From Eledone cirrhosa (lineage: Eukaryota), in NCBI GenBank assembly GCA_964016885.1, contig OZ024740.1, forward strand, positions 347,262,001 through 347,326,000: a DNA stretch of 64,000 bases, in the 5' to 3' direction. The position numbers were made by a program, and so were the translations under genes. A model generated the notes under the pieces. The model had not been told where the DNA came from, ran no database searches, and was given only the letters and a program-made list of their open reading frames with translations. Shown piece by piece: positions 30,451 to 52,971 of this stretch. Numbering within the stretch: position 1 is the first letter of the stretch; each line of letters opens with the position of its first letter.

Positions 30451-30488
30451 CCTTTACCGGTTTCGCAGTTCTTCTGCTTTTCAAAAGG
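30451..30488 (-). ncRNA. Identical mirror copy of the 31573-31610 hammerhead
   Basis: cctttaccggtttcgcagttcttctgcttttcaaaagg is its exact reverse complement. Confidence 0.8.
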
Positions 30489-31572
30489 TGAGTTGAGATG
30501 GAGGGTCTGTGGTTTTTATCACATCTGGTTGGTCTCTGAATGTTACTTGTTTTATATGGAAAAAGTGGCTCGAAATGCCAGGTTTTTCGAGAAGTAATTT
30601 GATTGGTTTGTCAATAATTATAATAAATTTCGCGCCAGTTCGCGTTACAATAGTTCTTCAAATAAGAGCGGGGGTTTGTCACAGGTTGTTTTTTCATATC
30701 GGAGTGTTTGAATTTCTTTTTACTTGAAAAAATGGTCTCACGAAGGCTTTTTTTTTGGTTGGTTATAAATGAAATTATGGCTGTCACGTGAACAAGTTTT
30801 CATTAAATTTGCTTAAGTTTTCATTAAATTTGCTTAAACTTTAATCTGTTATTTTAATAAATATATATATATATATATATATATATATATACGAGGTGTG
30901 GCAGAAAAGTTCCAGGACTGATGTCACAAAAGATTTATTTCAAACCCAAACTTCAGAGAAATGAATTATGGATAGAAAAGTAAATTACGTTTGAGAAATA
31001 TATAATTGAGAAATGATGCAAGAAATTACACTTGGCCAAAATATGAAGATATGACACTCATACACATAAACACACACATCAACACAGATACCCCTACAAA
31101 ATCTGAATTCTGACACCCCAGCGAACTAACCATATTCACTGAACCAGAACAATTCTCCCATCCCTTTCGCTTGACCATTATCTTTCACTTATCATAAAAT
31201 TCTCTACAAAGGCTACAGAATGGATTTCCAAATAAGGGCACGAAAATTTAATGAAAACTTGTTCACGTGACAGCCATAATTTCATTTATAACCAACCAAA
31301 AATAAGCCTTCGTGAGCCCCTTTTTTCAAGTAAAAAGAAATTCAAACACTCATATATGAAAAAAACAACCTGTGACAACCCCCCCCCCCCCCCTCTTATT
31401 TCAAGAACTATTGTAACGCGAACTGGCGCGAAATTTATTATAATTATTGACAAACCAATCAAATTACTTCTCGAAAAACCTGGCATTTCGAGCCACTTTT
31501 TCCATATAAAACAAGTAACATTCAGAGACCAACCAGATGTGATAAAAACCGCAGACCCTCCATCTCAACTCA

Positions 31573-31610
31573 CCTTTTGAAAAGCAGAAGAACTGCGAAA
31601 CCGGTAAAGG
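31573..31610 (+). ncRNA. 38-nt minimal type I hammerhead with U3-A8 core
   Basis: CCTT-TTGAAAA-GCAG-aagaa-CTGC-GAA-AC-cg-GT-A-AAGG; stems I and II are perfect and ACCGGT is palindromic. Confidence 0.8.
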
Positions 31611-31762
31611 AACCAAATAAATATATATATTTAAAAAAAAAATAAGACTCTAGTTGCATTTTCGATTTCATCTCTTTTTCTTTATACTTTCACTCGTGTA
31701 GGACACCTCGGTTATTTTTCATTTTGTAAAAAAACCTCACTTTCTAATATATATATATATAT

Positions 31763-32764
31763 ATAACGAAGGAAATGTGGTAAGGAACCAGGTGGACCAT
31801 AACGCACCAAAGTACTTGGTTTAGACCCCGGATACTTGCCCCCTTTTTGCGACCGCTCCCACTATTTTCCGTGCCTTCTATGTTTCTTAGTGGCACTACG
31901 CCTTATTTTCTCGTTTCAGTATTTCTTTCTTCGCTTTTCTTTTGGGCGGGGTGGATTCTGAATTTATTTTTCCGTATTCTACCTTTACTTCGTACGAAAT
32001 TTCATGTAGCTTGTTTAAGACCTTTTAGAGTTAGCATTAGTATTTTTTTTTTTCGGGACTCAGAATTATTATCTCGTACTAGTTTACTTTGCTGCACTGG
32101 GTGGTTGCTGGCATTATGCCCGGGATAGAAACCTTTATTATTTATCTCGTGGTAGTCTCTTTAGTATTTTGGCCCCATTTGTTGACCTGTCACCGTATGA
32201 TTTACGTACTTATACCTCTTAAAAGGGTCCTTGCCTATTCCGTCCCAATTAGTTCATTTACTTATTTCGTTATTTCTTTATTTCTTTCTTTACTTCTTTC
32301 TTTATTTATTTATTTATTTATCTAGCCTAACAATAGCTAGAGACTTAGGTCGTAGAACTTGCTTTACTTTTTTCTTTACACTTATTCGCTTTTCTTCACT
32401 CTCAGTATTTTTTCTTTCATATATATTTTTACCCCTCATTGTTCTACCTACCGTTCCGACTTCCTCCCCCTCCCCCTCCCCAGTATCTTCTTTGACCTCA
32501 TGCCCAGCTGTAGCTGGCGCTACCAACGCTTGTTTGGGTCTACTCCACCCATCCTCTCTTTCTCCTACTGGGAAGTTTAGCCACCATTTCCCCTACTAAT
32601 TTGCAATCACAGAAATACTACTGACTTTTGACAATCACTTTGACCATATATGGAATTACCCCTTGAGAAGATCGGCTATTTAAATACCAGGATAAATTTT
32701 CATTTAGTCCAGAATTAGCCGTCGAAACGGCTTGAGCTCAGCCGTCGGGATCTTACTGGTTCCT
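31763..32764 (+). mobile_element. Non-coding 3' portion of a family A Naiad PLE with a short inverted pLTR piece at its 5' end
   Basis: From about 31822 it resembles 11347-12218. 31763-31817 is an inverted pLTR end (ataacgaaggaaatgtggtaaggaaccaggtggaccat). Flanked by (TA)n. Confidence 0.8.
32658..32750 (+). ncRNA. Type I hammerhead motif, family A, U3-A8 core
   Basis: acCCC-TTGAGAA-GA(t)CGGCTA...TAGCCGTC-GAA-ACGGCT-tgagctc-AGCCGT-C-GGG: all three stems can form and the cleavage triplet is GUC. Confidence 0.7.
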
Positions 32765-33372
32765 ATATATATATATATATATAAATGTACAAACGAGTTT
32801 ACCCAGCTATGTATTAAATAGCATCACCAACCCGCAATTGGCCAAGCCGGGTGAGTACGGCTACACCCCAGACATAACCAAAACCAAAACATAAAACGGT
32901 AGGGATCAATCAGGAAGGTCTTCCTCCGGTAGGAGTGAAAAAATATTTATTAAAGATATTACTGAGTTACATTGTCATCTTTTCTATTTGTGATTATCTC
33001 TATGAAGATCTTAGTAGTTTATTTTATTTTATTTTAGAACAAGTTAATTGTTTCTTAAGGCTTTTCCCGAGTGTATATTTTGAATGCAGTCGTGATATTG
33101 ACACGTTATCGTAACAGACAGCAAAATATGAGTATGCTTTTGTAGTTCGTAAATTCATCATCATAAAATATAAATGGTTAGCTCCAGGTTACATTTATAG
33201 TTAATTTCCAAAAGCTGTATCTGCATATTCAACTCCTGTTTTGAGTTTTAGTATTGACTACGTCAATAAGAATATTAGTCTTAGCACCACTAGATACGCT
33301 AATGGATTTAGAAACGTTGTCGTTCCAAACTAAACATAAAATTCTAATAAAGGAACACTTAACAACGACAAA

Positions 33373-33563
33373 AGTAGTAGTAGTAGTAGTAGTAGTAGTA
33401 GTAGTAGTAGTAGTAGTAGTAGTAGTAGTAGTAGTAGTAGTAGTAGTAGCAGAGCAGCAGCAGCTGCAGCGGCAGCAGCAGCAGTAGTAGCAGTAGTATC
33501 AGTAGTAGTAGTAGTAGTAGTAGTAGTAGTAGTAGTAGTAGTAGTGGGTAGTAGTAGTAGTAG
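33373..33563. repeat. (TAG)n/(CAG)n compound microsatellite
   Basis: Direct reading. Confidence 0.95.
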
Positions 33564-50742: not shown

Positions 50743-50786
50743 ACCGTCTATGCATTTCAGGCTTAACTGGCCTTCGTCAGGACGGT
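50743..50786 (-). ncRNA. Intact minimal type I hammerhead, family E
   Basis: ACCGTC-CTGACGA-AGGC-cagttaa-GCCT-GAA-ATGCAT-A-GACGGT: 6-bp stem I, 4-bp stem II, palindromic ATGCAT. Confidence 0.85.
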
Positions 50787-51063
50787 CCCTCCCATCGCTT
50801 GCAACTGCTGGACTAGAAGGCAGGCGAGAATATATACTTTTCTTGTCTGTGTAAATGAGGTGATTAATCTCATTTGCATATGAAGCTGCATAAGTTGGCT
50901 CAACTTATAATTTTAAAAAATAGGATTTCGCTTCAAGCATAGCTTTATACAATATGTATAAATATTTCGTACCTCCAAAGAAATACGGTTTTAGGAAGCC
51001 GTAGCTATGCAAACACCGGGGGCTAACGCCATCTGGTGATGCCCAGCAGAAGCAAGAGCGACA

Positions 51064-51107
51064 ACCGTCTATGCATTCCATGCCTAACTGGCCTTCGTCA
51101 GGACGGT
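51064..51107 (-). ncRNA. Mutated second family E hammerhead
   Basis: ACCGTC-CTGACGA-aggccagttaggcat-GGAATGCAT-A-GACGGT (GAAA changed to GGAA). Confidence 0.65.
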
Positions 51108-52499
51108 CCCTCCCTCCGATATATATATATATATGATGGATTTTCCCGTCGCAGACGACAAATGCCATCTCACCTAACTCGAAACTGATAGCGTCTTTAT
51201 CCACAGATTAGGAAGTCCTTCTACGGAGGTAGCTTTTTATTTAGAGATTCCAGACTTTGTTATTTTTTTCCATGTAATTGATGCTATCCTTATTATGACC
51301 TGATCTCATTCAAGCCTAGAGTAAATTCTTTCGTTTTTTAATTTCTCCTTCTTCATAGTCCCTTAAAACTAAGTGGCTTCATGCTTTGTCATGGATTTCA
51401 TGAGAAAAAAATGTGTTTGTTTGTGCAGGGGAAGGTATGTGTATTGGTATATGGGCATTCTGCATGATCTCGAGTATACATGTATGAATTTTTGTTCAAA
51501 GGTGGGGTGAAGATGAAGAGCAATATTATATGACTTTATGAGTGAAGTAAATGGATTGTCTTTAAAGGAAATTAAATAGAAACTTGTACCAGGAAATGAA
51601 ATTGTGTTTTGAGCAGACGAATGTGTACAGTTATGGAGGAGGGGAGGAGAAATGTATTCATATATGTATGTAGAAGATTAGATACATATTAAATATAAGG
51701 AGCTTAGACAAAATTCTACAAGATACATTTGTAATAGTTTTGGAATAACTTCAAAAATCGAATGAAACAAAAATATGTTGAATATCACATACCCTAGGGT
51801 ATTCAATGGTATAGTCCTTTCATGTGGATGCATCGTGTCTCCGAATTCCATAACCAGAATTGTTGCAAAATTATCACGTGGTTAAAGTTGTCCTATCTTA
51901 CACGAACAATAGTGATATTTATGACTGGTTACTTCATCATGTATATGGTTAGCAAAATAACTCCCGATCTTCCAATATACGAAGGATATGTGATCAAGTG
52001 AATATTCTTGAAAAGTTAATAATTCCTTATCTAAATCATAGCCCTAAGATCTTCATCAGACGCCACCAGTTGAAAACATATCAGATGAAACACGGAAAGA
52101 TTTTATTATCATCTTGCAAAATAAATCAATATATGACTGTATAGTATACAGTCATATACAGAAAGGTTTGGGAACCACTGCTGTATACTAAGAGCAATCA
52201 ATTTGTTTTCTATTTCCCGCCTTGTTTTTCGTCCATCATGTAATACTGCCGTTTCCTATTGCCTCTGTTGTATATATAGTCCCATGTACGTCAATACACA
52301 TACATTTTACCATTCAGAGGTTTTTTTAAAAGCCCAACTAACAGACTAATTGTATTCAGTTAAATACGACGTAAGCACATGTTACTACCTCATATATATA
52401 TATATATTTGGGGATGGTCATATTTGTTTCAACACACGATTTCATATAAGAATTCTTGCAAAACTAATATATATATATATATATATATATATATATATA

Positions 52500-52730
52500 T
52501 AGCTTTCACCGTATTTTTCACTAAAGAAATTTTTAGCCTGATAATGGGGTTTAGAACCCTCAGATAAATGGAAAAAGATGAGAATTGACGCACGTCAATA
52601 CTCATCTTTTTCCATTTATCTGAGGATTCTAAACCCCATTATCAGGCTAAACATTTATTTAGTCAAAAATACGGTGAAAGCTATTCTATTTTCTAATTTC
52701 AAACCAGCTCACTGTTTCAAAACATACTTT
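52500..52730. repeat. Fold-back palindrome (centre about 52591) of family F, homologous to 55190-55325
   Basis: agctttcaccgtattttt..ctaaagaaat..tagcctgata.tggggttt is mirrored. The plus arm has CTGAGGA (52620) ... GAAAGCT. Confidence 0.85.
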
Positions 52731-52933
52731 TATATATATATATAGGGAGAAAAAAACGATTATTAGGTAGAAAAATATTTTATTCCCGTTATCTTTTTAT
52801 TTTTTCTAGGTTAGAAAATGTTTAAAACAGATTATTTTACTTTGTGTGAAGTGTCAAAGAACTAATTAATTTATTTATTAAATACCAATAGCATTGATTT
52901 ATTTATTTATTAATTTATTTATTTACTAATTAT

Positions 52934-52971
52934 CAATTACCGGTTTCAGCATTTTATGCATTTTCAAATTA
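52934..52971 (-). ncRNA. Minimal hammerhead with U3-A8 core in the Neptune 3' pLTR
   Basis: Minus: tAAT-TTGAAAA-tGCAT-aaa-ATGCt-GAA-AC-cg-GT-A-ATTg. Confidence 0.72.

What the first reader, a model, noticed from the sequence alone, without database searches (positions are those of the whole stretch)
30451..52971. Several unrelated pLTR families share a non-canonical hammerhead core UUGAnAA (U3-A8 in place of C3-G8)
Seen: TTGAAAA (31577 and mirror 30478-30484), TTGATAA (47054 and its mirror), TTGAAAA (52961-52967, minus) and TTGAGAA (32663). Each sits exactly between a pairable stem I and stem II and is followed by GAAAC..GU(A/C). Stem sequences differ entirely between families, so the double change looks compensatory rather than random decay. 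Known: positions 3 and 8 form a tertiary Watson-Crick pair in the active fold, and U3-A8 is a tolerated but uncommon natural variant that CUGAnGA pattern searches miss. Inference: a U3-A8 lineage, often with GAAACCGGUA, may be common in this genome's PLEs and under-annotated.
Basis: partly seen in the sequence, partly recalled or inferred. Interest (0 to 1): 0.75.

Follow-up and report, generated by a model that had tools for sequence, protein, structure and literature searches.

The report
Variant-core hammerheads in Penelope retrotransposons
These are hammerhead-ribozyme motifs at the ends of Penelope-like jumping genes, carrying an already published U-A swap of a core base pair in tens of thousands of copies; one lineage also spread about 2,000 copies with that pair mismatched, which suggests the ribozyme likely cuts only weakly and is not strictly needed for jumping.

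Summary
All six named motifs are there, and U3-A8 is the state of the source elements, not decay. UUGAnAA…GAAACCGGUA occurs 20,104 times genome-wide against 13 with C3-G8. Sister families carry C3-G8 or U3-A8 with covarying stems. The variant is already published for Schistosoma Penelope-like elements (PMC4209133), so the headline is a new instance.

Three corrections. (1) The families are not all unrelated: A, B and C are one Neptune-type group (53-56% protein identity); D is Hydra-type. (2) Stems are uneven: B has a 2-bp stem I. (3) U3-A8 is a minority: 17 of 85 hammerhead hits with pyrimidine 3 and purine 8 in an unbiased 1 Mb.

Family D has 1,993 of 7,793 copies with an uncompensated C3·A8 core, including window 9629 (minus strand). 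They form a coding-constrained stage between older and younger U3-A8 subfamilies, while the other core positions never change. Relatives show U3·G8 and C3-G8. The pair therefore covaries but tolerates single-step intermediates. Cleavage was not tested.

The parts
31573..31610 (+). Family A minimal type I hammerhead motif: 4-bp stem I, U3-A8 core at 31577-31583, 4-bp stem II, ACCGGU palindrome, A17 at 31606
   Evidence: of 48 aligned rows (overlapping loci included) none has C3 or G8, and two carry other core substitutions
30451..30488 (-). Family A mirror copy in the inverted arm; arms 30375-30810 and 31244-31686 are 95.7% identical
47052..47093 (+). Family B motif: U3-A8 core at 47054-47060, 4-bp stem II, ACCGGU palindrome, stem I only 2 bp
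   Evidence: family endonuclease region is 53% identical to family A (locus L283)
46768..46809 (-). Family B mirror copy, decayed in the palindrome; arms 46682-46843 and 47018-47179 are 92% identical
52934..52971 (-). Family C motif: U3-A8 core at 52967-52961, U·U at 10.1-11.1, AU-rich 4-bp stem I, ACCGGU palindrome
53364..54468 (-). Broken RT/GIY-YIG reading frames of the family C element, upstream of its hammerhead
   Evidence: weak Pfam GIY-YIG hit, E 7e-4, below the curated cut-off; 56% identity to the family A protein over 191 aa
32658..32751 (+). Family D (Hydra-type) motif: U3-A8 core at 32663-32669, long stem-loop II, 5-bp near-palindromic stem III, C17 at 32746
31747..31816 (-). Inverted tail arm at the other end of the 5'-truncated family D insertion, next to a (TA)n target
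9539..9634 (-). Family D hammerhead with the uncompensated C3·A8 core (CUGAGAA at 9629-9623), left arm of an inverted insertion
12110..12205 (+). Right arm of the same insertion: C3·A8, plus a private change at position 4
10021..10737 (+). Largest open piece of the broken RT/endonuclease gene between the two C3·A8 arms
   Evidence: 88% identity over 234 aa to the open family D frame P0001
46421..46480 (+). Short family D copy holding only the 3' half of the hammerhead
50742..50787 (-). Canonical C3-G8 hammerhead of another family (internal comparison); others at 29871 (-) and 17801 (-)

Best explanation
These are type I hammerhead motifs in the pseudo-LTRs of Penelope-like retrotransposons whose source elements carry U3-A8, and they likely act as weak, tuned-down self-cleaving ribozymes on read-through or tandem transcripts. 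Shown: position at pLTR ends beside (TA)n targets, family-level fixation, covariation with C3-G8 sister families, and invariance of the other core positions along family D. Inferred: A, B and C would cleave only as dimers through the ACCGGU palindrome, and U3 would also be trapped by A17, as C3 is by G17. D could fold as a monomer or a dimer. Inserted copies run past the cleavage site, so the templates were likely uncleaved or re-ligated RNA. Strong cleavage would then not be required, and the 3-8 pair could change one base at a time (C3-G8, U3·G8, U3-A8, C3·A8, back to U3-A8).
For: Counts: 20,104 U3-A8 against 13 C3-G8 and 275 single mismatches for the GAAACCGGUA group.

Covariation: the F/F' sister families have 1,697 matches; the first 100 are 56 U3-A8, 40 C3-G8, 3 C3·A8 and 1 U3·G8. 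Pair 3-8 reads UA 8 / CG 7 in 15 distinct rows, and two stem II pairs change on both sides.

Constraint: along the D ladder there are 0 changes in 10 other core columns, against 48 in 37 loop II columns and 5 at N7.

Mismatch stage: 1,993 C3·A8 of 7,793 D copies. An independent laying on run X1 gives C at position 3 in 25.5% of depth. Shared coding differences of C3·A8 copies are 66 synonymous to 17 non-synonymous, against 70 to 100 private.

Literature: metazoan PLE minimal hammerheads cleave weakly and as dimers (PMC4209133). Core mutants do not affect PLE insertion in vitro (PMC11167929). A G17-C3 trap is proposed in PMC3884650.
Against: No cleavage, ligation or RNA-end data exist here. B and C are not predicted to form the hammerhead fold as monomers, and none of the four U3-A8 window motifs folds better than shuffles (z -0.94 to +0.08). 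In one type III hammerhead only the G3-C8 swap was rescued; other single and double mutants there had low activity (PMC9901934), so U3-A8 may be nearly dead in some contexts. The D tree has only 135 columns, many open forks and no independent root. The 3' half of the D motif may overlap a promoter, which would also conserve it. Each family-level covariation is one evolutionary event, and the shuffle control ignores relatedness.
Confidence: 0.62

Rival explanations
1. The fold is kept for a non-catalytic job (template recognition by the RT/endonuclease, or promoter overlap), and cleavage is irrelevant in these families.
For: About 2,000 copies arose with C3·A8 from a coding-constrained source. 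B and C barely fold. 18 of 24 truncated D copies in the unbiased sample begin inside loop II and lack the 5' half. Core mutants insert normally in vitro, and no reads ended at the cleavage site in Anolis (PMC11167929).
Against: U4, G5, A6 and A9 in the 5' half also never change while N7 takes all four states, which is the catalytic pattern. The youngest D subfamilies have U3 again. F/F' change positions 3 and 8 together.
Confidence: 0.2
2. U3-A8 is a fully compensated, efficiently cleaving core under strict selection.
For: Clean covariation in F/F'. Only 1.3% single mismatches in the GAAACCGGUA group. Perreault 2011 states that 3-8 swaps were shown to be active in vitro.
Against: Replicating C3·A8 and U3·G8 subfamilies exist. 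U3 pairs with A17 in the lowest-energy fold of A. Stems of B and C are weak. The low mismatch rate among copies reflects their youth, not selection.
Confidence: 0.15
3. The U3-A8 copies are decayed canonical hammerheads, produced by AT-biased mutation after insertion.
For: Both changes are transitions toward AT, and the window is 33% GC.
Against: 20,104 U3-A8 against 13 C3-G8. Both arms of inverted insertions share the state. Young subfamilies 1.1-1.3% diverged carry it.
Confidence: 0.03

Closest known systems
U3-A8 minimal hammerheads of Schistosoma mansoni PLE pLTRs (Cervera and de la Peña 2014, PMC4209133)
   Same: Same core swap in type I minimal hammerheads of PLE pLTRs. About 1,300 U3-A8 against about 2,000 canonical hits. 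The supplement shows UUGAUAA and UUGAAAA families and an S. japonicum relative with CUGAAGA. Opposite-strand pairs also occur.
   Different: Here there are at least about 27,000 exact-pattern copies (20,104 + 5,763 + roughly 950 + roughly 350), in two PLE clades. C3·A8 and U3·G8 subfamilies are present; no CUGAGAA or CUGAUAA was found in that supplement's text.
Natural 3-8 covariants (Perreault et al. 2011, PMC3088659)
   Same: C3-G8 covarying to U3-A8 in natural hammerheads; U·U at 10.1-11.1 and very weak stems are tolerated.
   Different: Described there as rare core variations in several examples, not as high-copy transposon families with intermediates.
Neptune-clade PLEs (as described in PMC8557442)
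   Same: Families A, B and C have a C-terminal GIY-YIG, a CX4CxxC linker, two cysteines inside GIY-YIG, DKG (seen in C) and (TA)n targets.
   Different: Assigned by motifs only; no tree with reference PLEs was run.
Hydra-clade PLEs (Craig et al. 2021, PMC8557442, section 11)
   Same: Family D has RW-basic, DKT, CxCX5C, CxxC and CxH motifs, no internal CCHH, a unit of about 3.1 kb and (TA)n targets.
   Different: That paper reports canonical hammerheads for the clade; here the core is U3-A8 or C3·A8. The motif reads RWR, not RWK.
Anolis Poseidon PAc hammerhead (Frangieh et al. 2024, PMC11167929)
   Same: Hammerhead upstream of two reverse-transcription start sites that give tail and non-tail ends; the same two end types occur in family D.
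   Different: PAc has C3-G8 and was shown to cleave; nothing here was assayed.

Membership tests
Type I hammerhead ribozyme | Core U4 G5 A6 N7, A9, G12 A13 A14, A15.1-U16.1 and H17 | tested here: met
   Present in all four families; 0 changes in 10 core columns across D subfamilies.
Type I hammerhead ribozyme | Watson-Crick pair between positions 3 and 8 | tested here: met
   U3-A8 in A, B, C and most of D; covaries with C3-G8. Not met in the C3·A8 subfamily of D.
Type I hammerhead ribozyme | Helices I and II closing the core | tested here: inconclusive
   Met for A and D. B has a 2-bp stem I, and B and C are not predicted to fold this way as monomers.
Type I hammerhead ribozyme | Helix III, or a palindrome allowing a dimeric helix III | tested here: met
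   ACCGGU self-duplex -8.3 kcal/mol and dimer folds use it; D has a 5-bp stem III.
Type I hammerhead ribozyme | Site-specific self-cleavage after N17 | not testable with these tools
   Needs an assay; no RNA holder was listed.
Type I hammerhead ribozyme | Match to an Rfam hammerhead model | tested here: inconclusive
   No hammerhead family among the 150 best of 248 matches shown; 98 weaker ones were not displayed.
Penelope-like element pLTR | Adjacent RT with C-terminal GIY-YIG endonuclease | tested here: met
   A: RVT_1 and GIY-YIG above cut-off. B and C: 53% and 56% identical to A. D: no Pfam hit, but 21% to A over 439 aa (E 1e-5) with a YRDD motif.
Penelope-like element pLTR | Tandem or inverted 5'-truncated arms, optional tail, microsatellite target | tested here: met
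   Inverted arms in A, B and D; tandem unit of 3,118 bp in L276; tail and non-tail ends beside (TA)n.
Neptune clade (A, B, C) | CX2-5CxxC linker plus CCHH, and phylogenetic placement | tested here: inconclusive
   Motifs met; no tree against reference PLEs was built.
Hydra clade (D) | RWK, DKT, CxCX5C, no CCHH, CxxC/CxH, and phylogenetic placement | tested here: inconclusive
   All motifs met except RWR for RWK; no reference tree.

The most novel reading that the evidence does not exclude
A Hydra-type Penelope lineage walked its hammerhead through every transition state of the 3-8 core pair. For a long stretch of its history it replicated as an autonomous element with an uncompensated C3·A8 core (about 2,000 copies, 94 of the first 100 reading CUGAGAA) and then regained U3, while every other catalytic position stayed fixed. 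This would be a natural fossil record of stepwise compensatory evolution in a ribozyme active site, and evidence that a naturally mismatched core is either still usefully active or selected for low activity. It was not found in the 10 literature searches run, but four key papers could not be read.
Probability: 0.5. Interest if true: 0.6.

Novelty: new member of a known kind. Interest (0 to 1): 0.4.

Why it matters
For annotation: descriptors fixed on CUGAnGA would miss about a fifth of the hammerhead-like motifs here (17 of 85 in 1 Mb), including a group with at least 20,000 copies.

For biology: what PLE hammerheads do is unresolved (PMC8557442 passage; PMC11167929). Family D offers a natural allelic series (C3-G8, U3·G8, U3-A8, C3·A8) in closely related scaffolds, with known copy numbers and relative ages. 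Measuring their cleavage rates would directly test whether transposition needs an active ribozyme or favours a weak one.

Tried and rejected
(1) A-to-I editing as the source of the GGGAU/GGGGU difference between arms of D insertions: rejected. It was a search bias; 25 of 30 unbiased 3' halves read GGGGT, none read GGGAT, and the A arm was not tied to tail or non-tail ends.

(2) Editing of A8 to rescue C3·A8: no sign in inserted copies. G8 occurs in 12 of 2,005 C3 copies and 25 of 5,788 U3 copies. This cannot see cleaved RNA.

(3) Cap-derived extra G at the 5' end of short D copies: only 5 of 38 had GA before the boundary; dropped.

(4) An antisense UUGAAAA motif in family B (window 46684): found by the loose scans but not by the energy-filtered scan; probably chance in AT-rich DNA.

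(5) Expression: no RNA holder listed; not evidence either way.

(6) The first D tree held non-homologous flanks and was replaced.

(7) Placing C3-G8 families on a protein tree failed; most copies had no endonuclease region within 2.5 kb.

(8) Rfam was swamped by microsatellite matches.

(9) Earlier scan findings: none.

(10) Papers not held: Lünse 2017, Przybilski and Hammann 2007, Nelson and Uhlenbeck 2008, Martick and Scott 2006. They may already describe such variants or their rates.

(11) The smaller chromosomes beyond C5-C9 and C28 were not sampled.
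Full report
Observation. Stem quality differs. Family A (31577 and mirror 30484) has 4-bp stems I and II with predicted pair probabilities of 0.64-0.91. B (47054, mirror 46807) has a 2-bp stem I. C (52967, minus) has an AU-only stem I and U·U at 10.1-11.1. B and C are not predicted to adopt the fold as monomers. D (32663) has a long stem-loop II and a 5-bp stem III. 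None of the four U3-A8 window motifs folds better than shuffles (z -0.94 to +0.08), so the case rests on copy comparison, not on folding energy. Rfam showed no hammerhead family among the 150 best of 248 matches.

Context. The window lies in a 3.0-Gb animal genome. A, B and D sit in inverted arms ending beside (TA)n, and C follows broken RT/GIY-YIG frames. A longer A copy encodes RT and GIY-YIG above the Pfam cut-offs. B and C proteins are 53% and 56% identical to A and share a CX4CxxC linker, which fits the Neptune clade. D is only 21% identical to A and shows DKT, RWR, CxCX5C, CxxC and CxH motifs, matching the Hydra clade as described in PMC8557442. These clade labels come from motifs; no reference tree was built. 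The four families are therefore two groups, not four independent cases.

U3-A8 is the source state. In alignments of the best-matching copies, U3-A8 is the majority in all four families while N7 varies (these copies were selected by similarity). Whole-genome pattern counts are not biased that way. With the tail GAAACCGGTA there are 20,104 U3-A8 (control 17), 13 C3-G8 (control 4) and 20,392 for any pyrimidine/purine combination, which leaves 275 single mismatches, 1.3%.

How common. I sampled 100 evenly spaced 10-kb stretches: 80 from C1-C4 and 20 from C5-C9 and C28. A structure descriptor gave 104 hits: 64 C3-G8 (41 without tandem retrozyme-like types), 17 U3-A8, 3 C3·A8, 1 U3·G8 and 19 others. 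The reversed control gave 8 hits, none U3-A8, C3-G8 or C3·A8 (first 800 kb). U3-A8 is thus common but a minority, about 20% (27% without tandem types). The descriptor misses family C.

Covariation is real at family level. Two homologous pLTR families found in flanks (F and F', aligned) have 1,697 matches; the first 100 listed are 56 U3-A8, 40 C3-G8, 3 C3·A8 and 1 U3·G8 (counted by hand). In 16 of the 20 fetched loci (15 distinct rows) the 3-8 pair reads UA 8 / CG 7, and two stem II pairs change on both sides. This is one evolutionary event, and the shuffle control ignores relatedness. Among the 13 C3-G8 hits with the GAAACCGGTA tail are older relatives of A (L156, 77% identical; L158) and C-like copies (L154, L161). 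Several others are chance junctions or other families.

The pair tolerates intermediates. Family D has 7,793 pattern matches (control 0): 1,993 C3·A8, 37 with G8 (12 C3-G8 and 25 U3·G8) and, by subtraction, 5,763 U3-A8. C3·A8 occurs in both arms of many inverted insertions, including the window's own insertion at 9629/12115. Contigs of run X1 show C at position 3 in 52,648 of 206,419 depth units, 25.5% (this run may be the source sample).

Order of states in D. A tree of 96 distinct rows with positions 3 and 8 masked (135 columns, many open forks, midpoint root) places 25 of 27 C3·A8 rows as a grade spanning a 100/100 branch, between older U3-A8 subfamilies and the youngest U3-A8 subfamilies. 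The other 2 are isolated mutations, and 3 U3 rows lie within the grade. Divergence from subfamily majority falls from 7.7% and 3.8% (older U3-A8) through 6.3% and 4.0% (C3·A8) to 1.1-2.5% (young U3-A8) (84 of the 96 rows, grouped by hand). The sister group has 397 matches; its first 100 are 87 U3-A8, 10 U3·G8 and 3 C3-G8, with U3·G8 and C3-G8 in distinct subfamilies.

Constraint along this ladder. The ten other core columns never change, N7 changes five times, stem II changes three times (including a two-sided swap), loop II changes 48 times in 37 columns and the flanks 64 times in 41. C3·A8 copies share 66 synonymous and 17 non-synonymous differences from a young open frame, against 70 and 100 private ones, over 462 codons. 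Their source was therefore a coding-constrained element.

Mechanism. Shown: location, fixation, covariation, core conservation and a replicating mismatch stage. Inferred: weak cleavage. A, B and C lack helix III and carry a self-complementary ACCGGU (-8.3 kcal/mol), the dimer design whose in vitro activity is low in PMC4209133. With A17, U3 can extend stem I in the lowest-energy fold of A, by analogy with the G17-C3 trap proposed in PMC3884650; this analogy is mine. D copies end about 20 bases beyond the cleavage site or run on into a tail. [quoted passage not shown] Templates must then be uncleaved or re-ligated, which would relax selection on rate. [quoted passage not shown] The return to U3 in young subfamilies and the fixed 5' core argue that some catalytic constraint remains.

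Prior knowledge. PMC4209133 (main text parts 1-2 of 4, supplement part 1 of 3 and a term search) already reports U3-A8 in Schistosoma PLE pLTRs: about 1,300 hits, missed by the standard descriptor, with a C3-G8 relative in S. japonicum. PMC3088659 (section 8 and passages) reports natural U3-A8. Also seen: PMC11167929 (part 1 of 4 and passages); PMC8557442 (passages, section 11, supplement search); PMC9901934 (passages); PMC3884650 (part 1 of 5 and passages); PMC6765202 (passages); PMC7151607 (one passage); bioRxiv 10.64898/2026.07.22.740005 (part 1 of 5 and a term search; its supplements are closed). Ten searches turned up no report of a high-copy C3·A8 PLE subfamily in the listings and passages I saw. 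They were word searches, and Lünse 2017, Przybilski and Hammann 2007, Nelson and Uhlenbeck 2008 and Martick and Scott 2006 were not held.

Verdict. The finding is a real, large, new instance of a published variant: new member of a known kind, interest 0.40. The part worth following up is the family D allelic series with its C3·A8 stage.

Noticed in passing
window 46421-46480 (+); family D genome-wide: Most D copies hold only the 3' half of the hammerhead: 24 of 30 in the unbiased 1 Mb lack the 5' half, and 18 of these begin within a few bases of one point inside loop II. The point resembles an initiator or a 3' splice site (motifs recalled), so it may be the transcript's 5' end.
   Followed up: partly
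window 32716-32745 (+): In family D the 3' strands of stems II and III are near-identical, so a competing hairpin can bury GAAA; it appears in the lowest-energy fold of the 9629 copy. A possible conformational switch.
   Followed up: no
window 47062-47180 (+): Family B has an ATG at the start of stem II with about 40 open codons, read by eye, like the Anolis Poseidon element whose ORF starts at stem II.
   Followed up: no
L214, L219 (about 310-bp period); L204, L289 (about 467-bp period): Tandem arrays of canonical type I hammerheads typical of non-LTR retrozymes.
   Followed up: no
L167:5166, L290:985, L009:2885, L185:3181, L238:8798: At least five further U3-A8 families outside the window's four; one (L167) lies next to a Hydra-type frame.
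   Followed up: partly
window 50749-50780 (-), 29793-29871 (-), 17747-17801 (-): Canonical C3-G8 hammerhead motifs of other families in the same window; the 50780 element is duplicated about 321 bases downstream.
   Followed up: no
window 54764-54828 (-) and 55117-55185 (+): Two tRNA-like Rfam matches above the gathering score inside a repeated element with inverted arms, possibly a tRNA-derived repeat.
   Followed up: no
window 46684-46723 (+): Antisense UUGAAAA…GAAA motif with a 6-bp stem I candidate in family B copies; it failed the energy filter and is probably chance.
   Followed up: partly
L003, L047, L238 just downstream of the hammerhead: F and F' keep a 5' splice-site-like AAGTAAGT about 30 bases after the cleavage site.
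   Followed up: no
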